A stretch of 21,852 nucleotides of DNA from a virus. Taxonomy: Duplodnaviria > Heunggongvirae > Uroviricota > Caudoviricetes. Shown piece after piece: positions 1,468-20,857 of the stretch. Within the stretch, counting starts at the first letter, position 1; each line of letters begins with the position of its first letter. A model generated the notes under the pieces. That model did no database searches. It was not told the origin of the DNA and saw only the letters and a list, made by a program, of their open reading frames with translations. The DNA is taken from the IMG/VR virus record IMGVR_UViG_2690316278_000008; one strand, 5' to 3'. The translations under genes and the position numbers were made by a program.

Positions 1468-1470
1468 GAT

Positions 1471-1821
1471 TTACTCCCTCAGCGTGATGGTTAATTCAAC
1501 ATTCTGCATGGTCTGCATGACAGTGCCCGACAGCGTCACCCCGGCGTGGCCTCCTGCCTTCCAGACAACGTCGATGGCGTTCAGGGCAATGCGTGGTTCC
1601 CATCGTGTCAGTGCAATCACGGTAGCACTCATGCATTGCAGACGCGTGGTGTTATTCATGGGTTCGTCAATCAAATCAGGCACAAGGCTGCCATATTCCC
1701 GTCGCATAACCCGGCTTGCCAGCGGGGTGGTCAGGATGTCCCTGACTGACTGTTTCAGGTGCGCCATATCGTTCAGGTTTCCCGTCCCGTCCGGGTTCAT
1801 TCCTGTGTAGCGGGTTGTCAC
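1471..1821 (-). CDS. W: Baseplate protein W (GPW/gp25 family)
   Basis: 116 aa ORF MTTRYTGMNPDGTGNLNDMAHLKQSVRDILTTPLASRVMRREYGSLVPDLIDEP...; length matches P2 gpW (~115 aa); start overlaps V stop; fully unmasked. Confidence 0.85.
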   Translation of the reverse strand: MTTRYTGMNPDGTGNLNDMAHLKQSVRDILTTPLASRVMRREYGSLVPDLIDEPMNNTTRLQCMSATVIALTRWEPRIALNAIDVVWKAGGHAGVTLSGTVMQTMQNVELTITLRE

Positions 1822-4149: not shown

Positions 4150-4234
4150 GACTGGCCTCCGGTGTCACGTAAGCACCATGCACGAAAATCAGTACGACGG
4201 TTAACCAGTCCCTGTGAGCGTTCGCCGCCGCTGT

Positions 4235-4509
4235 TCACGAAGTCAGTCTGTTGCACATGTCAGGCCAGTTGTGCGCCTGTGCATGTTTCCAGATAGTGGT
4301 GCGGTGGTAGTTACGGTTCTTATCCCTGAACCACATAAGATTTCTGCATCCAAGATTAAAGGCGGCATCTGTCATTGCCTCAAACGCGGACTGTGGCATG
4401 GCGTTGCCGCTGAAGTTCTGATTTATGCAGTTTTCTGCATGTTGCATATCATTAACCCAGCGCCCGGCGACTTCCGTTTCGGTGTACAGACGATTTTCCA
4501 CATGCCCGG
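4235..4509 (-). CDS. Endolysin, lysozyme-like (only C-terminal ~88 aa visible; 5' end masked)
   Basis: Visible C-terminal translation ...NQNFSGNAMPQSAFEAMTDAAFNLGCRNLMWFRDKNRNYHRTTIWKHAQAHNWPDMCNRLTS* resembles the C-terminal helical region of phage GH24 lysozymes such as P22 gp19. Stop at 4235. Upstream is masked from 4510, so the start is unknown; this is the P2 K position. Confidence 0.5.
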
Positions 4510-4870
4510 NNNNNNNNNNNNNNNNNNNNNNNNNNNNNNNNNNNNNNNNNNNNNNNNNNNNNNNNNNNNNNNNNNNNNNNNNNNNNNNNNNNNNNNNNNN
4601 NNNNNNNNNNNNNNNNNNNNNNNNNNNNNNNNNNNNNNNNNNNNNNNNNNNNNNNNNNNNNNNNNNNNNNNNNNNNNNNNNNNNNNNNNNNNNNNNNNNN
4701 NNNNNNNNNNNNNNNNNNNNNNNNNNNNNNNNNNNNNNNNNNNNNNNNNNNNNNNNNNNNNNNNNNNNNNNNNNNNNNNNNNNNNNNNNNNNNNNNNNNN
4801 NNNNNNNNNNNNNNNNNNNNNNNNNNNNNNNNNNNNNNNNNNNNNNNNNNNNNNNNNNNNNNNNNNNNNN

Positions 4871-4963
4871 GCTGCATGGCGGTTTCCATCAGGCGGCGAT
4901 GTCGCCAGGCATGTAATGCAGACAGAGAACCGAGTAACAACCCGGCAAGGGCGATTTTTTCAN
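4871..4963 (-). CDS. Possible holin fragment (island between masked runs)
   Basis: Minus-strand translation of the 93-nt island: EKIALAGLLLGSLSALHAWRHRRLMETAMQ, a hydrophobic helix followed by a basic segment, lying where holin Y would be upstream of the endolysin. Frame and boundaries cannot be verified. Confidence 0.3.
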
Positions 4964-6068
4964 NNNNNNNNNNNNNNNNNNNNNNNNNNNNNNNNNNNNN
5001 NNNNNNNNNNNNNNNNNNNNNNNNNNNNNNNNNNNNNNNNNNNNNNNNNNNNNNNNNNNNNNNNNNNNNNNNNNNNNNNNNNNNNNNNNNNNNNNNNNNN
5101 NNNNNNNNNNNNNNNNNNNNNNNNNNNNNNNNNNNNNNNNNNNNNNNNNNNNNNNNNNNNNNNNNNNNNNNNNNNNNNNNNNNNNNNNNNNNNNNNNNNN
5201 NNNNNNNNNNNNNNNNNNNNNNNNNNNNNNNNNNNNNNNNNNNNNNNNNNNNNNNNNNNNNNNNNNNNNNNNNNNNNNNNNNNNNNNNNNNNNNNNNNNN
5301 NNNNNNNNNNNNNNNNNNNNNNNNNNNNNNNNNNNNNNNNNNNNNNNNNNNNNNNNNNNNNNNNNNNNNNNNNNNNNNNNNNNNNNNNNNNNNNNNNNNN
5401 NNNNNNNNNNNNNNNNNNNNNNNNNNNNNNNNNNNNNNNNNNNNNNNNNNNNNNNNNNNNNNNNNNNNNNNNNNNNNNNNNNNNNNNNNNNNNNNNNNNN
5501 NNNNNNNNNNNNNNNNNNNNNNNNNNNNNNNNNNNNNNNNNNNNNNNNNNNNNNNNNNNNNNNNNNNNNNNNNNNNNNNNNNNNNNNNNNNNNNNNNNNN
5601 NNNNNNNNNNNNNNNNNNNNNNNNNNNNNNNNNNNNNNNNNNNNNNNNNNNNNNNNNNNNNNNNNNNNNNNNNNNNNNNNNNNNNNNNNNNNNNNNNNNN
5701 NNNNNNNNNNNNNNNNNNNNNNNNNNNNNNNNNNNNNNNNNNNNNNNNNNNNNCCCGCTGAAATNNNNNNNNNNNNNNNNNNNNNNNNNNNNNNNNNNNN
5801 NNNNNNNNNNNNNNNNNNNNNNNNNNNNNNNNNNNNNNNNNNNNNNNNNNNNNNNNNNNNNNNNNNNNNNNNNNNNNNNNNNNNNNNNNNNNNNNNNNNN
5901 NNNNNNNNNNNNNNNNNNNNNNNNNNNNNNNNNNNNNNNNNNNNNNNNNNNNNNNNNNNNNNNNNNNNNNNNNNNNNNNNNNNNNNNNNNNNNNNNNNNN
6001 NNNNNNNNNNNNNNNNNNNNNNNNNNNNNNNNNNNNNNNNNNNNNNNNNNNNNNNNNNNNNNNNNNNN

Positions 6069-6791
6069 TGCGGAATCGGCTTTTTTCAGGGCGCGGGAAA
6101 GGGTTGCAATCTCGCGNNNNNNNNNNNNNNNNNNNNNNNNNNNNNNNNNNNNNNNNNNNNNNNNNNNNNNNNNNNNNNNNNNNNNNNNNNNNNNNNNNNN
6201 NNNNNNNNGTGATGAGGCCATGCTGTCCGCATCGCTCAGGCCACGGCGGGCAAAGGCGCACGCCTTGCATAATTTGGCGCGCACTTCGTCCGGCATATCC
6301 TGGTTGGCGACAATTTCCCAAAGTGTGTCCAGTGGTTCGATAAAGACGGACAAATCCGCGTCGGCATCCGTCCCGGCCTGCGTCAGTACCGGATTGCAGA
6401 TTTCTTCGGTCAGCACTGTGGCAGCAGTACGGCCAAAGTTATCCGGCATGATGAGGTTGTGACGGACCGCATACGCACCAATACGCAGCGCAAGCGGAAG
6501 ATCGCCGCAGTCAATCGCCCACACCATCAGCGTGGCAATCACTTCGTCCTGTTGCCCGCCGTCAGCCTCCAGCGTTCCCTCAATCCAGCCGGAAAAGTCC
6601 GGCAACAACGCTTTTTTGATGTCGGCTTTCGCGCTTCTGGCCTGTACGCCCTTAAGCCGGGCCTGTGCCAGACGCAGACGATACAGCACCTCTTCATGCG
6701 CGGTACGCGCGGCGTGGTCCACACCTTCATTCGCCCGGCCTGCGCGCTGTGCCATCACGTTCTGCCAGTGTTGCTGTGCAGGAGTAATCAT
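6069..6791 (-). CDS. M: Terminase small (endonuclease) subunit, P2 gpM-like; 3' end masked
   Basis: ATG 6791 preceded by GGAGA; MITPAQQHWQNVMAQRAGRANEGVDHAARTAHEEVLYRLRLAQARLKGVQARSAKADIKKALLPDFSGW...DMPDEVRAKLCKACAFARRG resembles gpM. The same frame resumes in island 6069-6115 (REIATLSRALKKADSA). The 779 aa track ORF 4452..6791 is a masking artefact spanning M, L, X, Y and K. Confidence 0.8.
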
Positions 6792-6808
6792 TTTTTCTCT
6801 CCGTTACA

Positions 6809-6827
6809 GGCGGGCATGATGCCCGCC
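6809..6827. promoter_or_regulatory. Perfect inverted repeat between capsid gene N and terminase gene M (possible mRNA hairpin)
   Basis: ggcgggcat-g-atgcccgcc: 9-bp arms, 1-nt centre. On the minus-strand mRNA it lies 9 nt after the proposed N stop and about 10 nt before the M ribosome-binding site. No U-tract follows. Confidence 0.3.
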
Positions 6828-6836
6828 GTGAGTTGA

Positions 6837-7969
6837 TTAGCTGTCGGCGAANNNNNNNNNNNNNNNNNNNNNNNNNNNNNNNNNNNNNNNNNNNNNNNNN
6901 NNNNNNNNNNNNNNNNNNNNNNNNNNNNNNNNNNNNNNNCAGTGACCATCGCGCACTTGCCATAGTCTTCAACGACATAAGCGTCATTGATGGACTGGTA
7001 GGTGGCGATGCGGTTGTATTCCGGTTCGTCTTTCATCAGACGACGCATTGAACCTTTCTGCCAGTAAATCGACAGGTTGTTGAATGAGGTGATCAGCATC
7101 GTTGCATCCGGGAAGAACGGTGCAAGGAACACACCCAGCCCGCCAATGGTGCGCGATGACAGGATGAGCTGCCCGGCAAGTAATTCCGCATTGGGATTCT
7201 GGCCGCTGATGCTGTTCAGCACTGGCAGACGCAGCGAGTTAAACAGGTTGCGCCCCATAATCACCACGAGGTCGTCAGCTTCCTTGTGCCATTCATCCAG
7301 CAGAGATGAGCGCGCGTCCTGTACCAGTGCATCAGGGTTCGCGTATTTACCCGCGTGCGCCACGGTGTTGTCCATGTTGCGGGAAGTCAGCGTCACGTCA
7401 TTCATTACGCGCTCGCTGGCATTGGTTCTGATGTGCTCCAGCCACCCCACGTTAACGTCCTGAAGCAGCTTGTTGGTGCTGAAGTTGGACTCATCCGCGT
7501 GAGATGTGCCGTTGAAACCGATCATGATGCGGTCAAGTGCCACCTGTCGGGCAATCTGTGCGCTGATGCGGGACTGAAAATCGCTGTGTGCCGACCAGGC
7601 ATCAAGCTGCGGATACGAAATAAACGTGTCGTAGTTCACCTGTTCGCACTGGTATTTGCGGTTTTTCAGATCAACCACGTTATTCGGGTTACGGCGTTTT
7701 GTTCCGTCATAACTGGTATTTGTGCGTGCAATCGGTCCTGTGGTGTCCAGGAGGATTTTTTCGCCTTTCTGGTCGGTCACGCCGATCACGTTAATTTTTT
7801 TTGTAAGTTCGGTGCTATCCTTTGAGGCGTTTTCAAAACGTTGCTGCACCGCAGGTTCCACGGTAAATCGCGATACCAGTGCAGAAACCGGGATATTGTT
7901 AAGCGACGCCTGCTGCGCCATATAGCAACCCAGCTTGTTGCGGGTAATATCTGACATCACCAGATTCAT
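6837..7969 (-). CDS. N: Major capsid protein (P2 gpN-like)
   Basis: ATG 7969 preceded by GGAG; ...SRFTVEPAVQQRFENASKDSTELTKKINVIGVTDQKGEKI...MIGFNGTSHADE...GWLEHIRTNASERVMN...NLSIYWQKGSMRRLMKDEPEYNRIATYQSINDAYVVEDYGKCAMV resembles gpN throughout. 6852-6939 is masked; the proposed stop is TAA 6839-6837 (reads ...FADS*), not the 6788 end given by the track. Confidence 0.85.
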
Positions 7970-7992: not shown

Positions 7993-8829
7993 TCAGAAGT
8001 CAGCCAGCTGGTCGGAGGCTGCGCCCGTTGCGGTGAACCGGTTCTGCGGATCGCCGTCCTGCGTGCGCAGTTTTTCCTTCAGTGCTGTCAGCTCCGTGGT
8101 CAGTAAAGTGATTTTCTGGCTGTCCTGCTGATGGCGTGTTTCCAGCGCATTAAAACGGTCGATAATGTCGGCCTGTGACGTTGCGACGCTTTCCACCGCT
8201 TCCTGAATACGGGAGAAACTGGCGTCATCCGCTTTGCGGCCACGACCAATAATCCCCATTACGCGGTTAAACCACTGGGTGCCTTCTTCCTGGCGTTGTT
8301 CTGCCATTTCGATGATTTCAGACTCGATGGCTTCGGAGATAAGCGGTGCTTCACCCTGGATACTGTTGAACGTCATCACCGCCTGACGTTGCTGTGCCGT
8401 GAATTTCAGGCGCTCAGTGCCCAGGCTTGCCGGGGTGTCGGTCATCGCCAGCCCGACCAGATAGGCGCGCCCGTTAACGGAGAACTGCGGGTGCAGTTCG
8501 ATACTGGAATAGATTTTCTTGCCGTCCGCGACAAGCTGCTTCATGCGCTCGGTCGGTTCGATTTCTGCATACAGCGCAGTACGTCCGGCCAGCGGACCTT
8601 CCGTAATGTCTTCCGTACTCAGTGCGGTGACATCGCCCATTGCGGAAAATTCGCTTGACGGGCATGGCGAGAGATAGTGCTCAACGTTCACGCGGGCAGC
8701 GTAAACATCCGGGTTGAAGTTCTCGGCGGCTTCACGCAGATGCACCGGACTGATTTCACGGCCATCAACAGTTGATCCGGAGACAGCCACGCGAAACTTT
8801 TTGCGGGATGTCTTTTTTTCATTAGCCAT
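7993..8829 (-). CDS. O: Capsid scaffolding protein (P2 gpO-like)
   Basis: Proposed start ATG 8829 (MANEKKTSRKKFRVAVSGSTVDGREISPVHLREAAENFNPDVYAARVNVEHY...) preceded by GAGGGG; the track's upstream start at 8862 adds 11 residues not expected for gpO. Contains ...YLVGLAMTDTPASLGTERLKF.... TGA at 7995-7993. Confidence 0.85.
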   Translation of the reverse strand: MANEKKTSRKKFRVAVSGSTVDGREISPVHLREAAENFNPDVYAARVNVEHYLSPCPSSEFSAMGDVTALSTEDITEGPLAGRTALYAEIEPTERMKQLVADGKKIYSSIELHPQFSVNGRAYLVGLAMTDTPASLGTERLKFTAQQRQAVMTFNSIQGEAPLISEAIESEIIEMAEQRQEEGTQWFNRVMGIIGRGRKADDASFSRIQEAVESVATSQADIIDRFNALETRHQQDSQKITLLTTELTALKEKLRTQDGDPQNRFTATGAASDQLADF

Positions 8830-8950
8830 AGTTTTTGCCCCTCTGACTGGTTCTTCAGTCATGATGGCAAAGCGTAACAGGCTGATACAAAGGGCTTTTG
8901 TTGTAAGAAAACGGCCAGAACAGGGGGTTAAGGAGAACGGTTTCGCGCGC
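8830..8950. promoter_or_regulatory. Divergent O/P intergenic region (expected late promoters); only partly visible
   Basis: Non-coding stretch between the O start (8829, minus) and the masked 5' region of P (plus). P2-like phages place back-to-back late promoters here. No clean TGT-N12-ACA activator site found in the visible part; a strong AAGGAG at 8929-8934 faces the mask. Confidence 0.3.
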
Positions 8951-9757
8951 NNNNNNNNNNNNNNNNNNNNNNNNNNNNNNNNNNNNNNNNNNNNNNNNNN
9001 NNNNNNNNNNNNNNNNNNNNNNNNNNNNNNNNNNNNNNNNNNNNNNNNNNNNNNNNNNNNNNNNNNNNNNNNNNNNNNNNNNNNNNNNNNNNNNNNNNNN
9101 NNNNNNNNNNNNNNNNNNNNNNNNNNNNNNNNNNNNNNNNNNNNNNNNNNNNNNNNNNNNNNNNNNNNNNNNNNNNNNNNNNNNNNNNNNNNNNNNNNNN
9201 NNNNNNNNNNNNNNNNNNNNNNNNNNNNNNNNNNNNNNNNNNNNNNNNNNNNNNNNNNNNNNNNNNNNNNNNNNNNNNNNNNNNNNNNNNNNNNNNNNNN
9301 NNNNNNNNNNNNNNNNNNNNNNNNNNNNNNNNNNNNNNNNNNNNNNNNNNNNNNNNNNNNNNNNNNNNNNNNNNNNNNNNNNNNNNNNNNNNNNNNNNNN
9401 NNNNNNNNNNNNNNNNNNNNNNNNNNNNNNNNNNNNNNNNNNNNNNNNNNNNNNNNNNNNNNNNNNNNNNNNNNNNNNNNNNNNNNNNNNNNNNNNNNNN
9501 NNNNNNNNNNNNNNNNNNNNNNNNNNNNNNNNNNNNNNNNNNNNNNNNNNNNNNNNNNNNNNNNNNNNNNNNNNNNNNNNNNNNNNNNNNNNNNNNNNNN
9601 NNNNNNNNNNNNNNNNNNNNNNNNNNNNNNNNNNNNNNNNNNNNNNNNNNNNNNNNNNNNNNNNNNNNNNNNNNNNNNNNNNNNNNNNNNNNNNNNNNNN
9701 NNNNNNNNNNNNNNNNNNNNNNNNNNNNNNNNNNNNNNNNNNNNNNNNNNNNNNNNN

Positions 9758-10943
9758 GTCGCGTCGTCAGGCGTTCCAGTTTAAAAGCATTATTCAGAAG
9801 GCCGCGGCTGAAGTCGATGTGGAGCTGAAAGGGGGCGATAAAATCATCCTCTCCAACGGCGCAGAGATGCATTTTCTCGGCACTTCTGCTGCGACGGCGC
9901 AATCTTACACGGGCAATTTTTATTTTGATGAATTTTTCTGGGTCAGTCGCTTTGCTGAACTGCGCAAGGTGGCTGGCGCTATGGCAACCCTCAGCGGACT
10001 GCGGCGCACCTGCTTCTCCACGCCATCCACCGAAACGCACGAGGCATACGCCTACTGGAACGGCGACCGCTGGAACGAGAAAAAGGCCGCGCATAAACGC
10101 CAGCGTTTTTCTGTGGACTGGAAAACGCTGCATAACGGGCTTATCTGCCCTGACCGGACGTGGCGGCAAATTGTCACGCTGGAAGATGTGGTTAATCACG
10201 GCTGGAAACACACCGATATTGATGAAATTCGTGATGAAAACACCGAAGACGAGTTCCGCAATCTCTATATGTGTGAGTTTGTCCGCGAAGGGGAATCGGC
10301 ATTTAACCTGAATATCCTGATTGGCTGCGGTGTTGACGGATACGACGACTGGAAAGACTGGAAACCCTTTGCCCCCCGCCCGATGGGGAATCGTCCGGTA
10401 TGGATTGGGTATGACGCAAACGGCAGCAGTGGTAACGGCGACAGCGGCGCTGTGTCCGTGGTGGTTCCTCCGGCTGTTCCTGGTGGTCGTTTCAGAACGG
10501 TGGAGACGCGACGCGTTCAGGGGCTGGAATTTGAAGAGCAGGCCAGAGTTATTGAAGAGTTCACGTATCGCTACAACGTGGAACACATCGGCATTGATGC
10601 GACGGGAGGGCACGGGGATGCCGTCTATCAGATAGTGAAACGGTTTTTTCCCGCCGCCATCCCTTACACCTTCACGCTGTCATCAAAACGGTCGCTGGTA
10701 CTGAAAATGCTGCAAATAATGCGTGCCGGGCGGTGGGAATACGATCGCGCCGAACGCGAGCTGGTTGCGGCCTTTAACGCCGTGCGTAAGGTGAAAACAC
10801 CGGGCGGTTTTATCACTTACGAAACGGACCGCGCGAGGGGGATCAGCCACGGCGACCTTGCGTGGGCAACCATGCTTGCTGTCATTAACGAACCGATTGG
10901 CGGCGAAGGAGAAAACGAGCGTTTCACGGTTATGGAGTTCTGA
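9758..10943 (+). CDS. P: Terminase large (ATPase) subunit, P2 gpP-like; 5' part masked, visible portion given
   Basis: Frame is open from the mask edge at 9758 to TGA 10941-10943. Translation ...GNFYFDEFFWVSRFAELRKVAGAMATLSGLRRTCFSTPSTETHEAYAYWNGDRW...NLYMCEFVREGESAFNL...WIGYDANGSSGNGDSGAVSVVVPP...IGIDATGGHGDAVYQIVKRFFP... is the terminase large-subunit C-terminal nuclease region. True start lies in mask 8951-9757 (about 9170 if P2-sized). Stop overlaps Q start (TGATG). Confidence 0.85.
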
Positions 10944-11989
10944 TGAGCAGAAAAAATAAAAAAGTGCGCATGAGTTCACGCATTGATCTCGCTGATGCGC
11001 TCAGGAAAGAATCGTCGCTCAGTGCATTCACATTTGATGGTCCTTACCGCCTGACCGGGCATGACCTGCTGGACAATATGTACTGTGCTGATAACGGGCG
11101 GTGGTATGAAACCCCGGTGGACTGGTACGGTCTGGCAAGAGCTGCCCGGCAAACGTCCTGGCATCAGTCTGCGCTTTACTTTAAGCGCAATGTATTGCTC
11201 GGCTGCTATATTCCGCACCCGCTGCTTTCCCGGCAGGATTTCTCGGCGCTGGCGCTGGACTGGTTTGTGTTCGGTAACGCATTCCTTGAGCTTCGGAGCA
11301 ATATGCTCGGCGAACCGCTTAAATTACGGCACGCCCTGGCGAAATACATGCGACGCGGAAGCGATCTTGAATCATGGTGGTATGTGCAGGATGGCAAGGA
11401 TGCGTTTCAGTTTCGTCCTGGCAAAGTGTGCCACCTGATGAATCCGGATATTAACCAGGAAATCTACGGCATGCCGGAATATCTTGGCGCATTACTCTCG
11501 GCCAGCCTTTCTCATTCGGCGGACATGTTCAGAAAACTGTACTACGACAACGGATCCCACGCCGGGTGCATCATCTACATCGGTGCAGCGCAGGTAAACC
11601 GCGAAAGCATGGACTCCCTGAAAGAAACGCTACAGGGGGCACGTGGTGGTGGTGCGTTTAAAAACGTGCTCATTCATGCGCCCAACGGGGGCAAAGAGGG
11701 GGTGCAAATTTTGCCGTTCCAGCAGATCACCGCAAAGGATGAGTTCATGAATGTTAAGGCGGCATCCCGTGATGATGTGCTGGCTGCGCACCGCGTTCCG
11801 CCGCAACTGATGGGGGCGATGCCGGGCGAAAAAAGTGCGTTTGGTGATGTGGAGAAGGCCGCGCGGGTTTACGCAATTAACGAGCTGATGCCCGTCATGG
11901 AGGCCATGAAGCACATCAATGACTGGCTTGGCGAAGAGGTGATCCGCTTTAACCCTTACGCACTGTTAGACACCCAGCCCACATCCTGA
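10943..11989 (+). CDS. Q: Portal protein (P2 gpQ-like)
   Basis: 348 aa, fully unmasked, ATG 10943 preceded by GGAG: MSRKNKKVRMSSRIDLADALRKESSLSAFTFDGPYRLTGHDLLDNMYCADNGRWYETPVDWYGLARAARQTSWHQSALYFKRNVLLGCYIPH...; length and content match P2 portal (~344 aa). Confidence 0.9.
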   Translation: MSRKNKKVRMSSRIDLADALRKESSLSAFTFDGPYRLTGHDLLDNMYCADNGRWYETPVDWYGLARAARQTSWHQSALYFKRNVLLGCYIPHPLLSRQDFSALALDWFVFGNAFLELRSNMLGEPLKLRHALAKYMRRGSDLESWWYVQDGKDAFQFRPGKVCHLMNPDINQEIYGMPEYLGALLSASLSHSADMFRKLYYDNGSHAGCIIYIGAAQVNRESMDSLKETLQGARGGGAFKNVLIHAPNGGKEGVQILPFQQITAKDEFMNVKAASRDDVLAAHRVPPQLMGAMPGEKSAFGDVEKAARVYAINELMPVMEAMKHINDWLGEEVIRFNPYALLDTQPTS

Positions 11990-12015
11990 CGCGCTTCGCT
12001 TGTCTGCTGCTTCGC

Positions 12016-12040
12016 CGGGGCATAAAAAATTTATGCCCCG
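12016..12040. terminator. Perfect 25-bp palindrome 27 nt downstream of portal stop (candidate terminator or structured element)
   Basis: cggggcataaa-aaa-tttatgccccg: 11-bp perfect arms. No U-tract follows on either strand, so intrinsic-terminator status is uncertain. Confidence 0.35.
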
Positions 12041-12326
12041 ACTCTCCAGCTCCTGTATCAGTCAGATAATTTCACGACGCTTTCCTGCTGATTGCCATCA
12101 TCGACAGTCAGACTCTTACGCAATCCCACCTCGTTGACTGCATATTCTCGCCGTCTCAGTGCGATTTTGACGGCCTTACCTTTCACCCCATCAAATCAAA
12201 AGCCCTCACGTCTTTTTCACGCTCAGCGTGAGAAATACAGCCATTCTGTTGTATCTCTGCGACATCGTTCAGGGAATGCTATTTACCCCCTGAAACGCGG
12301 GCTGTTCCCCCGTCACCTGCGCGCAG

Positions 12327-12460
12327 AAAAAACGCGTTTTTTTGTGCATGCACGGATCCTTGACGGATCCAGCCGCCACGCGGGCCGGAAGGGCAAAAAG
12401 TCGTTCAAAAAAATTGTGCAAATTTGTGCACTATTGTGCATTTATAAAATCAACTAAAAA
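12327..12460. other. Candidate cos/packaging-recognition region: phased TTGTGCA repeats, A6-CGCG-T7 palindrome, GC-rich block
   Basis: TTGTGCA at 12414-12420, 12424-12430 and 12434-12440 (exact 10-bp phasing) with a fourth copy at 12342-12348; palindromes aaaaaacgcgttttttt (12327-12343) and gtgcatgcac (12345-12354); direct repeat acggatcc (12352-12359, 12363-12370); GC-rich gccgccacgcgggccggaagggc (12372-12394). Lies between convergent Q and the accessory operon, where cos sits on the P2 map. No exact match to the remembered P2 19-nt cohesive end. Confidence 0.25.
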
Positions 12461-12480
12461 ACACCTAGTGTGACTTACCT

Positions 12481-12666
12481 CTACCACTCGATCGGCACGT
12501 AGTCATTAAGTTCCGGAGACCAATTGCACTTTTCACATCTGTGTTTTCCATTCTGGCAGATACATAAACGATAACGGCCACAATGCGGGCACCCATTTTC
12601 ACCATTATCATAATCACCGAGCGACCATTCCTGCATAAGCAGCTCTTCTTCATCATCATTTAGCAT
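12481..12666 (-). CDS. Small Cys-rich zinc-ribbon protein (61 aa), function unknown; third gene of accessory operon
   Basis: ATG 12666 preceded by GGGGG; MLNDDEEELLMQEWSLGDYDNGENGCPHCGRYRLCICQNGKHRCEKCNWSPELNDYVPIEW has six Cys (CxxC...CxC...CxxC) and an acidic N-terminus. Starts 14 nt after the previous gene's stop. Not recognised as Ogr or any known family. Confidence 0.55.
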   Translation of the reverse strand: MLNDDEEELLMQEWSLGDYDNGENGCPHCGRYRLCICQNGKHRCEKCNWSPELNDYVPIEW

Positions 12667-12680
12667 TAATCCCCCTTGAG

Positions 12681-12920
12681 CTATTTACTCTTCTCGGCCC
12701 TCAAAATCATACGAGAACCATCATCCAGCTCCCAATTAATTTCACCGCCTTCTGCCATGACTAGATGCCAAACGAGTTGAGCGGCCTCGTTGGTTACATC
12801 GCGACCGCGATCATTTCCTACGCGGCGTTTTGTTCCGTCTCCTAAGTCACGCATTTTTGCCAATACGATGGTTTTTGATAGCGGTGAAAAACCAAGCTGT
12901 AGTCGTGCTGAATTACTCAC
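12681..12920 (-). CDS. Hypothetical protein (79 aa); second gene of accessory operon
   Basis: GTG 12920 overlaps the upstream gene's TGA (GTGA) and is preceded by GGGGG; an in-frame ATG 63 nt downstream is an alternative start. MSNSARLQLGFSPLSKTIVLAKMRDLGDGTKRRVGNDRGRDVTNEAAQLVWHLVMAEGGEINWELDDGSRMILRAEKSK. No recognisable motif. Confidence 0.5.
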   Translation of the reverse strand: MSNSARLQLGFSPLSKTIVLAKMRDLGDGTKRRVGNDRGRDVTNEAAQLVWHLVMAEGGEINWELDDGSRMILRAEKSK

Positions 12921-13501: not shown

Positions 13502-13813
13502 TCATTCAGGAAATAATGCCCGGATATTCCCTGCTATCTGACTGGTTATCTGTGCGGTTGGTACTGGCTGTGGCACGGGGCGTTCTGTCCTGGTTTGTGT
13601 CACCGATAACGCCTCATCGTCAGCCCATGCAGCCAGTCGGTAAGCCTCTGCTGGATTCATTTTCAGAAGTGCCAGCCCGGCCAGAAAAGCCACGCGTTGG
13701 CCGCTTTTGCGGGCTTCTGGTGTAAGGCTGCCCAGCCAGGCGCATGCTTCGCTTTCGTTCTTGACGGCCGCAGGCTTCAGATAGAAACTTATCCGTCTGG
13801 TTGGTGTCGTCAT
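13502..13813 (-). CDS. parR: ParR-like centromere-binding adaptor (type II partition, RHH family)
   Basis: Proposed start ATG 13813 (AAGGAG upstream, 7 nt after parM stop): MTTPTRRISFYLKPAAVKNESEACAWLGSLTPEARKSGQRVAFLAGLALLKMNPAEAYRLAAW...IAGNIRALFPE. Resembles plasmid R1 ParR (RRTIAFKLNP...RAALTAGLALY...RSLFPKE). The track's longer ORF from 13948 overlaps parM and is rejected. Confidence 0.6.
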   Translation of the reverse strand: MTTPTRRISFYLKPAAVKNESEACAWLGSLTPEARKSGQRVAFLAGLALLKMNPAEAYRLAAWADDEALSVTQTRTERPVPQPVPTAQITSQIAGNIRALFPE

Positions 13814-13817
13814 TGGT

Positions 13818-14777
13818 TTACTCCTTGTCCATTGCGTACAGCCCATTAACCAGAGCAAACTGTGGCACCCCGTCCGCGATGAAAGTCGCATTAACTCCGC
13901 AGGCTTCGCGGATAGCGGGTGCCACAATCTCCGCCCCTCCACCGACAACCATCACCCGCCCGTAACCCGAAAAACCCGCCAGCGCGCGGATCACGCGTTG
14001 TTTCAGTGTTTCTTCCTTTTCACGAATAACCGCCATCAGGCTGGCGTAATGCGCGTCATTGTGGATGTGCTGGCGCAGCCAGGCTTCATCATGGCGATGT
14101 TCGATAATGGTATTGGCGATGTGGTGACTGGTGCGCATACCGTTAGTGGCCATCACCGACAGTACGGCATCGGCCATCAGAGAAACGCCTACGTGTGGAT
14201 CGCAAAACACCTGGCTGATACCTGCCAGTTGCCCCTGAACCTTTGCCACATCCAGCGTGGTTCCGCCCAAATCCACAATCAGCAGGGATTCAAACGGACT
14301 CATGTCAGCCAGTGCCTTAAAGCCAGCCGGAATGGATTCAGGCATAACCCGCACGTTACGGATAGTGAATGCTTCGCCGTTCTGGTACTCCACCGGGCGC
14401 ATAACGTTCGCTTTTTTGCGGTTGATGTTGGCCATGTCCGGCTGTGCGTTTGTGTCGAAATACTCGCTCAGTGGCAGGGTGACAACCACATCCACCTCCT
14501 GTGGCGTGATGCCTGATTTGACCAGCGCGTGATGAATGGCAATGACATTTACATCGCTGTACTGGTATTGCGTGTCGGTTGTCTGGACAAAGCGATCGCT
14601 GACCGGATCAAAACCATAGCGCACGCCATCAAGCATGTAGTTCGCGGGCTGCATGCCACCGAACGGCGCAGACCATTCCGACTTGAAGCTGTTCGGGCTG
14701 ATGGCGTTGCGGCGTTCGCCGTTCTCAGTCCATGCCAGCTTGATGTTGGTGGAGCCGTCGTCGATACAAATTTTCAT
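13818..14777 (-). CDS. parM: ParM/StbA-like actin-type segregation ATPase (type II partition)
   Basis: 319 aa, fully unmasked, ATG 14777 preceded by AGGAA: MKICIDDGSTNIKLAWTENGERRNAISPNSFKSEWSAPFGGMQ...VNVIAIHHALVKSGITPQEVDVVVTLPLSEYFD...VMPESIPAGFKAL...LLIVDLGGTTLDVAKVQGQLAGISQVFCDPHVGVS...VMVVGGGAEIVAPAIRE...ALVNGLYAMDKE. Resembles plasmid R1 ParM (MLVFIDDGSTNIKLQW..., 320 aa), including the phosphate-binding DDGSTNIK and DLGGTTLD motifs. Confidence 0.85.
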   Translation of the reverse strand: MKICIDDGSTNIKLAWTENGERRNAISPNSFKSEWSAPFGGMQPANYMLDGVRYGFDPVSDRFVQTTDTQYQYSDVNVIAIHHALVKSGITPQEVDVVVTLPLSEYFDTNAQPDMANINRKKANVMRPVEYQNGEAFTIRNVRVMPESIPAGFKALADMSPFESLLIVDLGGTTLDVAKVQGQLAGISQVFCDPHVGVSLMADAVLSVMATNGMRTSHHIANTIIEHRHDEAWLRQHIHNDAHYASLMAVIREKEETLKQRVIRALAGFSGYGRVMVVGGGAEIVAPAIREACGVNATFIADGVPQFALVNGLYAMDKE

Positions 14778-15028: not shown

Positions 15029-17965
15029 TCAGAAAGCACGGTAACGGGTGTTTTCATGGTGTTCTGGTCCTGCTGAAGTGTGGATGCCAGGCGTGNGTGC
15101 GGCGGCTTCAGGGTCTGATGCCCCCAGCTGTGTCAGATAGCTGGCGACCGGGTTATGGCGGATCTCCGTGCTGCTTACGCCATGATTACGGCTCAGGCGC
15201 TGCCAGAGCTGCGTGATTCGGCTGTCCGGGCGGGTATCCGGTTTGCGTACAATTTCAAATCCCTGCGGTGCAATGATGCTGCCGTCAACGTACAGACTGC
15301 CGCCCCGTAACAGGTGCTGCATCTGTTGTTCACCGATATGCAGGCCGAGAGATTCAGCAGACTCCCGCCATTCTTTAGCGAGTAATTCGTGGTTATCAGG
15401 CAAAGGCCGCTGCTGTTTGCGGCTCTGTGTCCAGCTCTGCATTTCATCACTGCTGTTTTTTGCCTGTTTGTCACGAAGCGAACGCATCAGCGCCCGGCGT
15501 TCGTGCCGTTTCAGTGAGCGCATCCATTCATCCACATCAACGCCGTCAGGGAGCTGCGGCCACGGTGCTGGCCGTTCTTCCGGCTGTTCTGTCCCGTTGT
15601 TGTCCGTTTCCTGTACACGGGGACAGTTATTGCCACGAGTCCAAGGGGCGGCAGGGCCGCCCTGAAGGTCAAAACCATTTTCGCGGGCGCTGTCTTCCGC
15701 TTCCGGTTTGCGTCTTACCAGCNNNNNNNNNNNNNNNNNNNNNNNNNNNNNNNNNNNNNNNNNNNNNNNNNNNNNNNNNNNNNNNNNNNNNNNNNNNNNN
15801 NNNNNNNNNNNNNNNNNNNNNNNNNNNNNNNNNNNNNNNNNNNNNNNNNNNNNNNNNNNNNNNNNNNNNNNNNNNNNNNNNNNNNNNNNNNNNNNNNNNN
15901 NNNNNNNNNNNNNNNNNNNNNNNNNNNNNNNNNNNNNNNNNNNNNNNNNNNNNNNNNNNNNNNNNNNNNNNNNNNNNNNNNNNNNNNNNNNNNNNNNNNN
16001 NNNNNNNNNNNNNNNNNNNNNNNNNNNNNNNNNNNNNNNNNNNNNNNNNNNNNNNNNNNNNNNNNNNNNNNNNNNNNNNNNNNNNNNNNNNNNNNNNNNN
16101 NNNNNNNNNNNNNNNCTTCAGCCGTTGCGGGCCTTCCGGGTTGCGTGCCATCTGGCTGGCAAGGCGGCGCAGTTCACGCCATACCTGGCGGGAGGGGATG
16201 CCAAAGAACTGGAACTGGCGGACCCGGTGAAGGCGCGCCCAGCCGATGGCGCGTTCCACGCTCTCGGCCATTGATTTTCCGGTTTCGTGGTCAACGCGTG
16301 GCTTGCCCGTTTTCGGGTCGATGCCATCCACGGCGCGGCTGTCCAGGTTTTTCCCGATGTAGGTGGCGATGTAGCTGGTTGGCGTGCCTTTTGAGCCGTC
16401 TACATACTCCGCCTTAAAGCGCGGAGTTATGTCATCGCCCAGCTCGTGACGATCTTCCTGAATGGCAATATCGCGGGTGTGGGACACAATGGTGTCGATT
16501 TCTTCCGGATGAGCAAAGACCATCATATGCCAGTGCACGGTGCCGTCATGGTGAGGCTCCGCCGTGCGGATGCCATACCAGCGCAGGCCGTCGCGGTTCA
16601 GTTTTTTGCGGACCGTCGCAAAAAACGTGTTAACCAGGTAATCGCTGGAGTCGCGCATTGTGGCCCCGTTCCATTTGGGATTCGGATGACCGTTCTCCGT
16701 TGTGGCGTGGTATTTTGACGGGCAGGTGACAGTCAGAAACACCGCTTTGTCGCCACGGGCTTCGGCCAGAAGTTCCAGCCCCTTCATGGTGGCCATCATT
16801 TCTGCCTTACGGTGAACCGGGTTACTTACTCCCGCGTAATACACCGTCTCGAGATCAATCGTGAACCCGTCTTCATTTTCCAGCATGAAACTTTTCAGGA
16901 AATCGCGTGTTTTCTCGCGCTGTGCGCGAAACTCGCTTAACGCGTCCTGGCTCAGATAGGGCGATGTTTTTCTGGAAACCAGACAGGCGGCGCGAAGTTG
17001 TTCTTCTCTCCACTCGCAACGTAACAGCCACAGTTTGCGTTTCCANNNNNNNNNNNNNNNNNNNNNNNNNNNNNNNNNNNNNNNNNNNNNNNNNNNNNNN
17101 NNNNNNNNNNNNNNNNNNNNNNNNNNNNNNNNNNNNNNNNNNNNNNNNNNNNNNNNNNNNNNNNNNNNNNNNNNNNNNNNNNNNNNNNNNNNNNNNNNNN
17201 NNNNNNNNNNNNNNNNNNNNNNNNNNNNNNNNNNNNTGTAACGCCATGCGGGCCAGCATCTGATACGCCTTCAGCGTTACATCCATGNNNNNNNNNNNNN
17301 NNNNNNNNNNNNNNNNNNNNNNNNNNNNNNNNNNNNNNNNNNNNNNNNNNNNNNNNNNNNNNNNNNNNNNNNNNNNNNNNNNNNNNNNNNNNNNNNNNNN
17401 NNNNNNNNNNNNNNNNNNNNNNNNNNNNNNNNNNNNNNNNNNNNNNNNNNNNNNNNNNNNNNNNNNNNNNNNNNNNNNNNNNNNNNNNNNNNNNNNNNNN
17501 NNNNNNNNNNNNNNNNNNNNNNNNNNNNNNNNNNNNNNNNNNNNNNNNNNNNNNNNNNNNNNNNNNNNNNNNNNNNNNNNNNNNNNNNNNNNNNNNNNNN
17601 NNNNNNNNNNNNNNNNNNNNNNNNNNNNNNNNNNNNNGGCGAATAAGCGGATCGCGCAGATAGGACGGCAGCAGGCGCAGCGAGGCCATGGCTTCATCCA
17701 CCGCGCCGCGTGCCTGTTTTCTGGCGTCTCCTGCCAGTGTGATGGTTTTGTCCTGTTTTTCCTGTGCGTCCAGGCTTTTATTAATCAGGTTGCCCAGTGG
17801 CGTGGCGGAGAACGCCGCATCAGCCATTTCCTGGCGGCGCTCGTTCTCTGCCCGGTGGGCATCCAGCCAGGAGGAAAGCGCGGATTCAGGAGCGGGGATC
17901 CCCGTTCCTTCACGCCCCACTGCGTGGCGCGGTTGTTGCCAGTCCCTGATGTACTCTGCCGTCAT
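15029..17965 (-). CDS. A: Replication initiation endonuclease, P2 gpA-like (HUH rolling-circle initiator); interior partly masked
   Basis: ATG 17965. Block 16116-17045 translates ...LRWYGIRTAEPHHDGTVHWHMMVFAHPEEIDTIVSHTRDIAIQED...SYIATYIGKNLD..., containing the HUH motif (HWHMMVF) of P2 A-type initiators. After mask 15723-16115 one frame stays open from 15722 to TGA 15031-15029, so the four track ORFs in this interval are treated as one gene broken by non-frame-preserving masks. Nominal span is longer than P2 A (~761 aa); length is uncertain. Single n at 15096. Confidence 0.75.
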
Positions 17966-18724: not shown

Positions 18725-18924
18725 CTGCGTGACTCCTGTACCTGTCTGATAAGATTCACCTGCACCACGTTGGTGGCGCAGAAGTAAGTGCCGTCAGTGA
18801 GATAGATATGATGTGCATCCTTTTCTGAACGGTGTTTGTCGATTGTGGTAATCAGGCGTTCGTCAACTTCGTATTCACGTCCTCTGGAGGTGAAACGAAC
18901 GACAGGAAAATGCTTAATTGCCAT
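18721..18924 (-). CDS. Hypothetical small protein (67 aa), translationally coupled to the downstream HTH gene
   Basis: Proposed start ATG 18924 with strong RBS AAGGAGG 5 nt upstream; the track's start at 18975 is a non-ATG codon without an RBS. MAIKHFPVVRFTSRGREYEVDERLITTIDKHRSEKDAHHIYLTDGTYFCATNVVQVNLIRQVQESRR. Confidence 0.45.
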   Translation of the reverse strand: MAIKHFPVVRFTSRGREYEVDERLITTIDKHRSEKDAHHIYLTDGTYFCATNVVQVNLIRQVQESRR

Positions 18925-19436
18925 TACGCCTCCTTGGCGTGTGCGAATACCTCCGCGAATGCGGATTGTTTTCACATTTTCTTATTTAACCTGGGGTCTT
19001 ATTTGCGCGGTTATTCTTCAGTGAAAAAGCGTTCAATCTTTTTTACTGAATTAATAATTCGCATAANNNNNNNNNNNNNNNNNNNNNNNNNNNNNNNNNN
19101 NNNNNNNNNNACCACCGAAATAATCAGAACAAGCCATGAAATAAATANNNNNNNNNNNNNNNNNNNNNNNNNNNNNNNNNNNNNNNNNNNNNNNNNNNNN
19201 NNNNNNNNNNNNNNNNNNNNNNNNNNNNNNNNNNNNNNNNNNNNNNNNNNNNNNNNNNNNNNNNNNNNNNNNNNNNNNNNNNNNNNNNNNNNNNNNNNNN
19301 NNNNNNNNNNNNNNNNNNNNNNNNNNNNNNNNNNNNNNNNNNNNNNNNNNNNNNNNNNNNNNNNNNNNNNNNNNNNNNNNNNNNNNNNNNNNNNNNNNNN
19401 NNNNNNNNNNNNNNNNNGCCCATCACAACGCCCTTT

Positions 19437-19759
19437 AATCTGCTTTCTGTATTTCAGCTTCTGAATCCATACAAATAATTTCGATATAGGGTTCATCGCC
19501 ATTAACCTGGCGTGCCTTTTCATCTTCGCTGNNNNNNNNNNNNNNNNNNNNNNNNNNNNNNNNNNNNNATGATTTCTCGTACGGTCTGGTACGGAAGTTC
19601 CACAAGCAGTCGCGTGCCGTTCAGATAAACGTAAGTGGCTTCGTCGGCTCCGTTTTTACCCGCCGGAGTCACTCCGTCAATAGCGGATGCACGTAATAAC
19701 AGTTCACCGCGAAAATCAATAAAACGGATAAATACACCTTGTGCATTGTCTTTGGTCAT
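19437..19759 (-). CDS. Hypothetical early protein; interior masked, boundaries approximate
   Basis: ATG 19759 preceded by AGGTG: MTKDNAQGVFIRFIDFRGELLLRASAIDGVTPAGKNGADEATYVYLNGTRLLVELPYQTVREI, then mask 19532-19568. Beyond it one frame reads ...SEDEKARQVNGDEPYIEIICMDSEAEIQKAD* to a stop near 19437; the overlapping basic track frame (MKRHARLMAMNPISK..., 19523) is considered less likely. Span is not a multiple of 3. Confidence 0.35.
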
Positions 19760-20496: not shown

Positions 20497-20808
20497 ATGT
20501 CAATAGAGATATCAAAGAAGCTAAAAGCAATTCGAGAATCTGAGGGGCTTAGTCAGGCAAAGTTCGCGGATTCAATAGGTATTGCGGTTGGTACGGTTAA
20601 GCAATACGAGACTGGTATTCGAGGTGTGGGAACGGAGGTTTTACTGAAAATCACAATGCACCCGGAATTTAAAAAATACACTACGTGGTTGATGAGTAAC
20701 GAAACAAATGAGGCTGCTGGGCAGATCAGTCCTTCTCTCTCCCCTGATGGGCCAGAAAACACATCGTCTTCTCAAAAATCCCGCAAGACTGGCACACAGC
20801 CCGGCTAA
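20497..20808 (+). CDS. C: Immunity repressor, P2 C-like (HTH)
   Basis: Proposed start ATG 20497 preceded by AGGTG: MSIEISKKLKAIRESEGLSQAKFADSIGIAVGTVKQYETGIRGVGTEVLLKITMHPEFKKYTTWLMSNETNEAAGQISPSLSPDGPENTSSSQKSRKTGTQPG. Resembles P2 C from memory (...TPQFTKYTLWFMTNQIAPESGQIAPALAHFGQNETTSPHSGQKTG). The track's upstream start at 20395 is rejected. Confidence 0.8.
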   Translation: MSIEISKKLKAIRESEGLSQAKFADSIGIAVGTVKQYETGIRGVGTEVLLKITMHPEFKKYTTWLMSNETNEAAGQISPSLSPDGPENTSSSQKSRKTGTQPG

Positions 20809-20857
20809 TCATGGAACGCTGGGGGCATGGTGGTCTTGTAACGCTGGGGCTTCACGA

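What the first reader, a model, noticed from the sequence alone, without database searches (positions are those of the whole stretch)
12327..12460. Helically phased TTGTGCA repeats and palindromes in the long non-coding gap after the portal gene (candidate cos / terminase-recognition site)
The 490-bp gap between convergent Q and the accessory operon is unusually long. It contains three TTGTGCA copies at exactly 10-bp spacing (12414, 12424, 12434), a fourth at 12342, an A6-CGCG-T7 palindrome, gtgcatgcac, and a GC-rich block. Same-face phased repeats suggest cooperative protein binding, as for terminase small-subunit sites, and cos is expected here on the P2 map. I could not match the remembered P2 19-nt cohesive end, so the exact cos cut site is unresolved.
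Basis: partly seen in the sequence, partly recalled or inferred. Interest (0 to 1): 0.5.

Follow-up and report, generated by a model that had tools for sequence, protein, structure and literature searches.

The report
Cos packaging site with phased repeats
The flagged stretch is part of the DNA-packaging (cos) site of a P2-like prophage, and its evenly spaced TTGTGCA repeats are this lineage's version of repeats that sit at the same fixed distances from the cut site in P2, 186, satellite P4 and distant relatives, so they most likely guide the packaging enzyme.

Summary
TTGTGCA occurs at 12342, 12414, 12424 and 12434, and no shuffle produced a phased triple. The window is a P88-like (Xuanwuvirus) prophage of the P2 family. 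The gap after the portal gene aligns almost without gaps to the P2/186/P4 cos junction.

The homologue of the 19-nt cohesive end lies at 12299-12317 on the minus strand (GGTGACGGGGGAACAGCCC). That is just left of the flagged interval.

The repeats correspond to TGCA-core repeats at fixed positions in relatives. One or two lie about 29-35 nt from the cut and three lie about 101-124 nt away. Proximal-to-distal spacing is 72/82/92 nt in three lineages. Two of those lineage sets were chosen by cohesive-end sequence alone.

P4-like satellites keep the repeats. So do satellite-like elements that have no portal or terminase gene beside cos.

Similarity among close relatives ends exactly at 12440, where variable cargo starts.

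The motif differs by lineage (TGCAT, TGCACAA, yGCAGrr) while the positions hold. This favours a phage-encoded binder, most likely terminase.

The A6-CGCG-T7 and gtgcatgcac palindromes are not conserved. Binding and cleavage remain untested.

Verdict: a new member of a known kind of site, with a testable conserved geometry.

The parts
10943..11989 (+). Portal gene Q, transcribed towards cos as in P2.
   Evidence: Pfam Phage_portal, E=4e-18. P88 annotation.
12016..12040 (.). Perfect 11-nt-arm hairpin just after the Q stop codon, at the position of P2's tQ terminator. It has no T tail and the terminator scan did not call it.
   Evidence: Inverted repeat I5. P2 tQ annotation. Scan result.
12281..12298 (.). 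Left (Q-side) flank of cos. Similarity to the satellite-like element L125 begins here. The bases CCC and CGCG are conserved.
12299..12317 (-). Inferred homologue of the 19-nt cohesive end (nicking region). The minus strand reads 5'-GGTGACGGGGGAACAGCCC, pointing towards Q.
   Evidence: Aligned to P2 GGCGAGGCGGGGAAAGCAC and to 3LV2017-like GGCGAGGCGGGGGAGCAAG; SEN4 starts GGCGAGGCGGGGGAACGAG (compared by eye). 91-99% conserved. Cut positions were not measured.
12318..12324 (.). Conserved TGCGCGC flank on the right-arm side of the nicking region.
   Evidence: 90-100% conserved..
12325..12337 (.). It is lineage-specific and not conserved.
   Evidence: 15-60% conserved, with one column at 90%. Replaced by GACATTTGCTTCG in Novemvirus-like relatives.
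12338..12348 (.). T-run plus the proximal TTGTGCA repeat, 25-31 nt from the inferred cut region. It corresponds to P2's TTTTAATGCA.
   Evidence: 97% conserved. Alignment. TGCA at -29/-31 in 93-99% of junctions.
12349..12404 (.). Spacer of fixed length with variable sequence. It holds small GC-rich dyads (CCGC-cac-GCGG at 12374-12384; relatives have CGCCAG..CTGGCG) and a lineage-specific ACGGATCC direct repeat.
   Evidence: Constant 72-nt proximal-to-distal distance.
12405..12413 (.). TCAAAAAAA A-tract abutting the distal repeats. It is conserved in the P88, Novemvirus and 3LV2017 lineages but not in P2.
12414..12440 (.). Three distal TTGTGCA repeats at exact 10-nt spacing, 97-123 nt from the inferred cut region. 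The last base is the edge of the conserved backbone.
12441..12464 (.). Start of the variable cargo hotspot. Identity among close relatives falls from 96-99% to about 25-50% here.
   Evidence: The hotspot next to cos is described in PMC9122126.

Best explanation
This is the cos (cohesive-end) packaging site of a P88-like prophage of the P2 family. The functional unit spans about 12281-12440. Terminase nicks within 12299-12317, by homology to P2's 19-nt 5' overhang. The TTGTGCA heptamers are recognition elements on the right-arm side of the cut: one proximal (12342-12348) and three distal (12414-12440). The distal copies are held 72, 82 and 92 nt from the proximal copy, about 7, 8 and 9 helical turns, so all lie roughly on one face of the helix. 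I infer that a phage-encoded protein binds this array cooperatively. The most likely candidate is an oligomer of the small terminase subunit gpM, which would wrap or loop the fixed-length spacer and position the large subunit gpP at the nicking site. The array may also define which DNA is packaged, so that satellites carrying the matching array are packaged by the helper. What is shown: homology and position of cos, conservation, fixed geometry, retention in satellites, and a lineage-specific motif. What is inferred: which protein binds, the looping, the exact cut positions, and whether the array acts at initiation (like lambda cosB) or termination (like lambda cosQ).
For: (1) Context: P, Q, O, N and M genes of the P2 type flank the gap. 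(2) MAFFT aligns 12270-12455 almost gaplessly with the reverse-complemented P2, 186 and P4 junctions. Cohesive end, T-run plus TGCA, GC dyad and three distal repeats all fall in register. (3) In 108 P2/186/P4-type junctions chosen only by the cohesive-end 18-mer, TGCA sits at -29 (0.94-0.96), -35 (0.81-0.82), -101 (0.61-0.72), -111 (0.57-0.62) and -124 (0.29-0.44). The background is 0.011 per position. (4) Proximal-to-distal distances of 72/82/92 nt recur in all three lineages: SEN4/3LV2017 40, 34 and 28 of 45 representatives; P2 type 49, 43 and 17 of 69, with 23 more at 95; P88 type 27, 27 and 26 of 31. (5) A reciprocal test holds. Loci chosen by the triple alone have a cos core at the expected distance in 113 of 117 cases. 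Loci chosen by the core alone have the phased triple in 93 of 94 cases. In metagenomes chosen by the 19-mer alone, 80 unique sites have the triple; I read the 9 without it as GC-rich chance matches. (6) In a sample chosen by Q, 77 of 78 loci keep the triple, and identity collapses exactly after 12440. (7) Eighteen loci with no Q beside cos, 14 of them with Psu next to cos (P4-like satellites), keep TGCA at -29 (18/18), -35 (15), -101 (16), -111 (16) and -124 (15). P4 itself does the same. The papers read here state that P4 and P2 share homology only at cos. (8) Two elements with an N-like capsid gene, no Q within 2.5 kb on the Q side of cos and no terminase family among the ORFs scanned keep the full P88-type array. 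(9) RSA1, whose cos ends were determined experimentally (PMC5694545), has TGCAT at -29, -35, -100, -110 and -129. (10) phiCTX has yGCAGrr at -28, -37, -99 and -109. Positions are therefore kept while the motif changes by lineage. P2-type and P88-type motifs both occur in E. coli phages, which argues for a phage-encoded rather than a host binder. (11) Replacing a P4 packaging signal with one that has longer flanks around cos raised cosmid transduction by more than 1000-fold (PMC9594776).
Against: No binding, cleavage or end-mapping data exist for this lineage. Identity of the inferred cohesive end to P2's is only 13 of 19. None of 115 metagenome loci clearly ends at the predicted end. One locus, L680, stops 3 nt beyond it, and I did not verify that this is a contig end. 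The P88_4B11 record starts at window 12395/12396, inside the spacer and not at the inferred cut; this start is probably arbitrary, but that is not proven. The P88-type sample partly consists of loci chosen by the triple. The direction of packaging relative to the array was not established, so the analogy with lambda cosB may be wrong in detail. The first two distal repeats plus the A7 tract also form a weak terminator-like hairpin on the minus strand.
Confidence: 0.7

Rival explanations
1. The repeats belong to cos but are bound by something other than terminase. Candidates are a host nucleoid or architectural protein, or another late phage protein, that bends the DNA, protects the end, or helps the ends rejoin after injection.
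For: The conserved geometry and A-tract fit any architectural binder. In lambda cos, a host factor (IHF) acts between terminase sites (my own knowledge).
Against: The motif differs between lineages that share E. coli as host: TGCAT in P2/186/P4 and TGCACAA in P88. phiCTX differs again. A host factor would be expected to keep one motif. The TCAAAAAAATTG stretch misses the IHF consensus spacing by one base (read from the sequence).
Confidence: 0.12
2. The distal repeats plus the A7 tract act mainly as an intrinsic terminator for the minus-strand cargo operon, which runs into cos.
For: The scan finds a 5-pair stem GTGCA-N6-TGCAC followed by T7 on the minus strand at 12431-12416. The cargo operon ends at 12465 with no other obvious terminator.
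Against: The stem has only 5 pairs, and the scan found 2 sites where shuffles give 0.8. TGCA is self-complementary, so any two copies can pair. In P2 the neighbouring gene old is transcribed away from cos, and P2 has no T-run there. Many relatives carry their own strong terminator immediately outside the third repeat. The terminator idea does not explain the proximal copy or the 72/82/92 geometry.
Confidence: 0.05
3. The repeats are a recombination boundary or target that mediates swapping of the adjacent cargo (defence) hotspot.
For: Similarity among close relatives breaks exactly after the third repeat. Hotspots next to cos are known, and cos-end recombination has been proposed (PMC9122126).
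Against: A sharp boundary is equally expected if the repeats are simply the last essential bases of cos. The fixed distance to the cut site and the proximal copy are not explained. No recombinase gene is consistently adjacent.
Confidence: 0.05
4. The repeats are a parC-like centromere bound by the ParR/StbB-like protein of the nearby ParM partition module.
For: ParM (13818-14777) and a Plasmid_stab_B protein (13502-13948) are encoded 1-2 kb away. ParR-type centromeres are phased iterons (my own knowledge).
Against: ParM was found in only 66 of 120 loci carrying the triple. P2, 186, P4 and SEN4 have the equivalent repeats next to unrelated genes (old, orf97, psu, a hypothetical protein), and RSA1 and phiCTX have them with no gene annotated in the last 300 nt. 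The array lies downstream of the operon, not upstream of parM. It tracks cos and Q, not the cargo.
Confidence: 0.01

Closest known systems
cos sites of P2, 186 and satellite P4 (19-nt 5' cohesive ends and a 55-bp conserved core; Ziermann and Calendar 1990, as cited in PMC5694545 and PMC9122126)
   Same: Same map position between Q and the variable right end. The G-rich cohesive-end sequence is alignable. The same T/A-run plus TGCA lies 29-35 nt from the cut. A GC dyad sits in the spacer. Three TGCA-core repeats lie about 100-124 nt from the cut, with the same 72/82(/92) spacing.
   Different: The cohesive-end homologue matches P2's at only 13 of 19 positions. Relative to SEN4 it appears to lack 2 nt in the G-run. 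The repeat unit is TTGTGCA (TGCACAA) at a strict 10/10 nt spacing, not (A/G/T)TGCAT at 10/13. An A7 tract abuts the distal array. The flanking TGCGCGC lies on the right-arm side instead of the Q side.
Phage lambda cosB (R3-I1-R2-R1 sites bound by the small terminase subunit gpNu1, with an IHF bend)
   Same: Several short repeats lie beside the nicking site. One is near and the others are farther away across a spacer that is probably bent. The presumed role is to anchor terminase for nicking and packaging.
   Different: There is no sequence similarity. No IHF consensus is present. Which side of the cut is packaged first was not established here. P2-type terminase is reported to prefer circular monomers (my own knowledge, not tested here).
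SPP1 pac site (pacL and pacR boxes bound by the small terminase G1P, looping the DNA to expose pacC)
   Same: Phased repeats bound by a small-terminase oligomer that loops the intervening DNA (described in PMC7617512).
   Different: SPP1 uses headful packaging with sites on both sides of the cut. Here both sets of repeats lie on one side of a cos-type staggered cut.

Membership tests
P2-family cos site | Located between the 3' end of portal gene Q and the variable, non-essential right end of the genome | tested here: met
   Q spans 10943-11989 and the variable cargo starts at 12441. The P2 layout is shown.
P2-family cos site | G-rich cohesive-end sequence of about 19 nt, homologous to GGCGAGGCGGGGAAAGCAC and oriented towards Q | tested here: met
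   The minus strand of 12299-12317 reads GGTGACGGGGGAACAGCCC. It aligns to P2 (13/19) and to the intermediate 3LV2017-like sequences, and by eye to SEN4's start. This rests on homology only.
P2-family cos site | Conserved core on the right-arm side (the 55-bp core: TGCA..TGCATTAAAACC plus a GC-rich flank plus the cohesive end) | tested here: met
   TTTTTTTGTGCA at 12337-12348 aligns with TTTTAATGCA. TGCA lies at -31 and -35 here, against -29 and -35 in P2. The GC-rich flank has a different sequence.
P2-family cos site | Cognate terminase genes (gpM small subunit, gpP large subunit) present in the same element | tested here: met
   Terminase_6N/6C domains at 9819-10943, and Phage_term_smal in the ORF at 4452-6791. 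Both genes are partly N-masked in the window.
P2-family cos site | Staggered cleavage in vivo giving complementary 5' single-stranded ends on virion DNA | not testable with these tools
   No virion end data are available. Metagenome contigs do not clearly end at the site.
Lambda-type cosB | Repeated sites bound by the small terminase subunit | not testable with these tools
   Repeats are present and conserved. Binding cannot be tested. No solved structure matches M by sequence.
Lambda-type cosB | IHF site between the repeats | tested here: not met
   TCAAAAAAATTG has 5 rather than 4 bases between TCAA and TTG (read from the sequence). No other match was seen.
ParMRC centromere (parC) | Iterons upstream of parM that co-occur with ParM and ParR | tested here: not met
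   The array lies downstream of the operon. ParM is found in only 66 of 120 loci that carry the triple. P2, 186, P4, SEN4, RSA1 and phiCTX have equivalent repeats with no par gene annotated beside them.
Intrinsic terminator | Stable GC-rich hairpin followed by a T-run, conserved in relatives | tested here: inconclusive
   A 5-pair stem plus T7 lies on the minus strand. It is weak, and its form is not conserved in the P2-type sites.

The most novel reading that the evidence does not exclude
The distal phased repeats may be a general second recognition module of P2-family cos sites that has not been functionally defined. They lie outside the 55-bp core and are locked 72/82/92 nt from the proximal site. 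Their lineage-specific motif (TGCAT, TGCACAA, yGCAGrr) would then set packaging specificity between helpers and satellites. On this reading, P4-like satellites match P2/186-type helpers. A separate, apparently undescribed kind of element would match P88-type helpers: it carries an N-like capsid gene (and an Ogr/Delta-like gene in L393), has no portal gene beside cos and no terminase family among the ORFs scanned.
Probability: 0.3. Interest if true: 0.6.

Novelty: new member of a known kind. Interest (0 to 1): 0.4.

Why it matters
The result fixes where this widespread prophage family is cut and packaged, and it defines the exact inner edge (12440/12441) of the cargo and defence hotspot next to cos. 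It gives a concrete, testable packaging signal of about 160 bp for building cosmids or transducing particles based on P88-like helpers. The fixed 72/82/92-nt geometry, combined with lineage-specific motifs, offers a simple handle on how P2-type terminases recognise DNA. It may also explain how satellites match their helpers, a point the papers I could read do not address beyond the 55-bp core.

Tried and rejected
1. A first pairwise local alignment with P2 paired CTGCGCGC..TGACGG with P2's left flank. This was a misalignment. The multiple alignment with intermediate lineages placed the cohesive end at 12299-12317.

2. The start of record LR595891 (window 12395/12396) was considered as a possible virion end. 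It has no terminal redundancy and falls in the non-conserved spacer. It was not adopted.

3. ParR centromere: rejected on co-occurrence.

4. Sigma-70 promoter for the cargo: the scan found none in 11990-12464, and the cargo genes converge on the repeats.

5. Ogr/Delta late-promoter site (TGT-N12-ACA): no match when the repeats were read by eye.

6. Rfam: only a sub-threshold chance hit.

7. ORFs 12092-12457(+) and 12269-12421(-) as genes: judged unlikely. They span the cut site, conservation is block-like, and close relatives differ by 1-nt indels.

8. The metagenome scan for contigs ending at the predicted end was inconclusive.

9. The genome-contig scan returned mostly unrelated TTGTGCA repeats, for example in Bryobacteraceae. 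Twenty Enterobacterales-type hits were usable, one of them titled Vagococcus.

10. Ziermann and Calendar 1990 and the 2016 P2 review are not in the library. I could not check whether their deletion endpoints already include the distal repeats.

11. No solved structure matches gpM by sequence. Structure prediction was not run because it would not decide binding.

Full report
**Observation**

TTGTGCA lies at 12342, 12414, 12424 and 12434. These are four of only five copies in the window. A shuffled window holds about 4.7 copies in total, so only the clustering is unusual. The phased triple did not occur in any of 100 shuffles, even with three mismatches allowed. The A6-CGCG-T7 palindrome (12327-12343), gtgcatgcac (12344-12353) and a GC-rich block are present. 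The non-coding gap runs from 11990 to 12464, which is 475 nt.

**Context**

The window is a prophage of the P2 family, closest to Escherichia phage P88 (Xuanwuvirus). The gap is 92-97% identical to 16 phage records.

- The large terminase subunit and portal gene Q lie on the plus strand, ending at 11989.
- Scaffold O and capsid N lie on the minus strand.
- The small terminase subunit M lies further left, and an integrase is at 20708-21835.
- To the right of the gap are minus-strand cargo genes, then a ParM/StbB-like module and a gpA-type replication gene.
- Parts of the window are masked with N. This creates artefactual long ORFs such as 4452-6791. The focal region is not masked.

**Where cos is**

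A search for the phased triple in viral contigs returned several divergent lineages with the same layout. One Klebsiella 3LV2017-like lineage carries CTCCCCCGCCTCGCC at the aligned position. This is the reverse complement of the start of P2's cohesive end, GGCGAGGCGGGG.

A MAFFT alignment was built from window 12270-12455, the reverse-complemented P2, 186 and P4 junctions, and six intermediate sequences. It is almost gapless. The correspondences are:

- P2's 19-nt end aligns with 12299-12317, whose minus strand reads GGTGACGGGGGAACAGCCC.
- P2's TTTTAATGCA aligns with TTTTTTTGTGCA.
- The GC dyad CGCCAG..CTGGCG aligns with 12372-12388.
- The three distal ATGCA copies align with the three TTGTGCA copies.

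The Salmonella phage SEN4 record starts with GGCGAGGCGGGGGAACGAG, which bridges P2 and the window. The cut region therefore lies just left of the flagged interval. The exact cut positions were not measured.

**The repeats are a family-wide, position-locked part of cos**

In 108 unique P2/186/P4-type junctions chosen only by the cohesive-end 18-mer, TGCA occurs at fixed positions. The background is 0.011 per position.

| Position relative to the cohesive end | Frequency of TGCA |
|---|---|
| -29 | 0.94-0.96 |
| -35 | 0.81-0.82 |
| -101 | 0.61-0.72 |
| -111 | 0.57-0.62 |
| -124 | 0.29-0.44 |

The reference genomes agree. In the window the TGCA cores lie at -31, -35, -103, -113 and -123.

The distance from the proximal copy to the distal copies is 72, 82 and 92 nt in all three lineages.

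| Lineage | Representatives with a proximal TGCA | Count at 72 nt | Count at 82 nt | Count at 92 nt |
|---|---|---|---|---|
| SEN4/3LV2017 | 45 | 40 | 34 | 28 |
| P2/186/P4 | 69 | 49 | 43 | 17 (23 more at 95 nt) |
| P88/Novemvirus | 31 | 27 | 27 | 26 |

The P88-type sample partly consists of loci chosen by the triple itself.

RSA1 is a Ralstonia phage whose ends were determined experimentally (PMC5694545). It has TGCAT at -29, -35, -100, -110 and -129. Pseudomonas phage phiCTX has yGCAGrr at -28, -37, -99 and -109. The positions are kept while the motif changes with lineage.

**Non-circular tests for the P88 type**

- Loci chosen by the triple alone have a cos-core-like sequence at the expected distance in 113 of 117 cases. 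The other four are unrelated tandem repeats.
- Loci chosen by the core alone have the triple in phase in 93 of 94 unique cases. The variants are TTGTGCG, TTGCGCA and CTTGCA.
- Metagenome loci chosen by the 19-mer alone gave 80 unique sites with the triple. Reading their sequences, the nine without it look like chance matches in GC-rich DNA.
- Loci chosen by the portal protein keep the triple in 77 of 78 cases.

Among 72 close relatives, identity is 96-99% up to 12440 and then collapses within one base to about 25-50%. The last repeat is therefore the edge of the conserved backbone. This fits the published cargo hotspot directly adjacent to cos (PMC9122126).

Footprinting across 20 representatives sharing under 85% identity shows three conserved blocks:

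- 12296-12324, the cos core
- 12338-12348, the T-run plus proximal repeat
- 12405-12440, TCAAAAAAA plus the triple

The A6-CGCG stretch, the second half of gtgcatgcac and most of the GC block are not conserved.

**Satellites**

Eighteen P2-type loci have no Q beside cos, and 14 of them have Psu next to cos (P4-like satellites). They keep TGCA at -29 (18/18), -35 (15), -101 (16), -111 (16) and -124 (15). The papers read here state that P4 and P2 share homology only at cos. Retention of the distal repeats outside the 55-bp core therefore points to packaging.

Two further elements carry the full P88-type array: L125, from a viral contig, and L393, from the Apirhabdus apintestini chromosome. Both have an N-like capsid gene and a partner gene. 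L393 also has an Ogr/Delta-like gene. Neither has a Q homologue within 2.5 kb on the Q side of cos, and none of the ORFs scanned there matched a terminase family. L125 resembles the window only across 12281-12440. This bounds the likely functional unit at about 160 bp.

**Mechanism**

The best-supported reading is as follows. Terminase recognises the array on one face of the helix and wraps or loops the fixed-length spacer. It then nicks within 12299-12317.

A phage-encoded binder is favoured because P2-type and P88-type motifs differ although both phage groups infect E. coli. The small subunit gpM is the obvious candidate, but nothing here tests binding.

Replacing a P4 packaging signal with one that has longer flanks around cos raised cosmid transduction by more than 1000-fold (PMC9594776). 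That result is consistent with this reading but is not specific to the repeats. I did not establish whether the array acts at initiation or termination, or which end is packaged first.

**Rivals**

- A host or other architectural binder remains possible. The lineage-specific motifs count against it.
- A weak minus-strand hairpin followed by T7 (12431-12416) could terminate cargo transcription. It is only marginally above chance, its form is not conserved in the P2-type sites, and it does not explain the geometry.
- A ParR centromere is contradicted by co-occurrence. ParM was found in 66 of 120 loci, and the P2, 186, P4, SEN4, RSA1 and phiCTX ends examined have no par gene annotated beside the repeats.
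- No sigma-70-like promoter was found in the gap.
- No Rfam family matched.

**Weak points**

- The cohesive-end assignment rests on homology (13/19 identity to P2).
- The P88_4B11 record starts at 12395/12396, not at the inferred cut.
- No metagenome contig clearly ends at the predicted end. One locus, L680, stops 3 nt beyond it, and this was not verified as a contig end.
- I could not read Ziermann and Calendar 1990. I therefore cannot say whether the distal repeats were already shown to be required. None of the papers I could read mentions them.

**Verdict**

The finding is the cos site of a P88-like prophage, a new member of a known kind of site. Its added value is a precisely bounded signal and a conserved 72/82/92-nt repeat geometry that can be tested directly.

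Noticed in passing
L125 (IMGVR_UViG_2734482779_000006, locus 1198-4200) and L393 (Apirhabdus apintestini CP138906.1, locus 4118-7090): Two related elements carry a P2-family capsid gene (35-39% identical to the window's N, 47% to each other) and a partner gene (29% identical to each other). L393 also has an Ogr/Delta zinc-finger gene and L125 has MazF. Both have a complete P88-type cos with the repeats. Neither has a portal gene within 2.5 kb on the Q side of cos, and none of the ORFs scanned matched a terminase family. They look like satellites that encode their own capsid protein and borrow a P88-like helper's terminase.
   Followed up: partly
window 13502-14777 (minus strand): A ParM (StbA_N/ParM) gene and a Plasmid_stab_B (ParR/StbB-like) gene lie between the gpA-type replication gene and the cargo. 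ParM was found in 66 of 120 related loci and is annotated in P88. This is a plasmid-type actin partition module inside an integrating P2-like phage. Its centromere was not located.
   Followed up: partly
window about 801-1200, 3601-4000, 4401-6000, 8801-9600, 15601-16000, 17201-17600, 18801-19600: These stretches have near-zero GC because they are masked with N. They produce artefactual long ORFs on both strands (for example 4452-6791, 779 aa) and they split the terminase genes P and M.
   Followed up: yes
window 12465-12920 (minus strand): The cargo next to cos in this particular prophage is a 64-aa Cys-rich (zinc-ribbon-like) ORF and a DUF7446 protein. Close relatives carry entirely different genes at this position, which is the known hotspot next to cos.
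   Followed up: partly
LR595891.1 (L003 and L004): The deposited P88_4B11 genome starts at the position equivalent to window 12395/12396. This is inside the non-conserved cos spacer, with no terminal redundancy. The record start is probably arbitrary rather than a physical end.
   Followed up: partly
L680 (metagenome locus): A Novemvirus-like locus stops 3 nt beyond the inferred 19-nt cohesive end (...GGTGACGGGGGAACAGCCCacg). If this is a true contig end from virion DNA, it would be the only physical hint of the cut position. This was not verified.
   Followed up: no
L593 (phiCTX right end, record 35260-35385): Several copies of ATTACC(T)TT lie 170-290 nt from the phiCTX right end, outside the cos-associated yGCAGrr repeats. 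Their function is unknown.
   Followed up: no
Genome-contig loci L329-L408 (e.g. Bryobacteraceae MAGs): The same TTGTGCA-N3 triple pattern occurs many times in Bryobacteraceae/Bryobacterales genomes, often several times per genome. None of these loci passed the cos-core filter applied. They are probably an unrelated dispersed repeat.
   Followed up: no
window 12016-12040: A perfect 11-nt-arm hairpin (CGGGGCATAAA/TTTATGCCCCG) follows the Q stop codon at the position of P2's tQ terminator. It has no T tail on either strand, and the terminator scan did not call it.
   Followed up: partly
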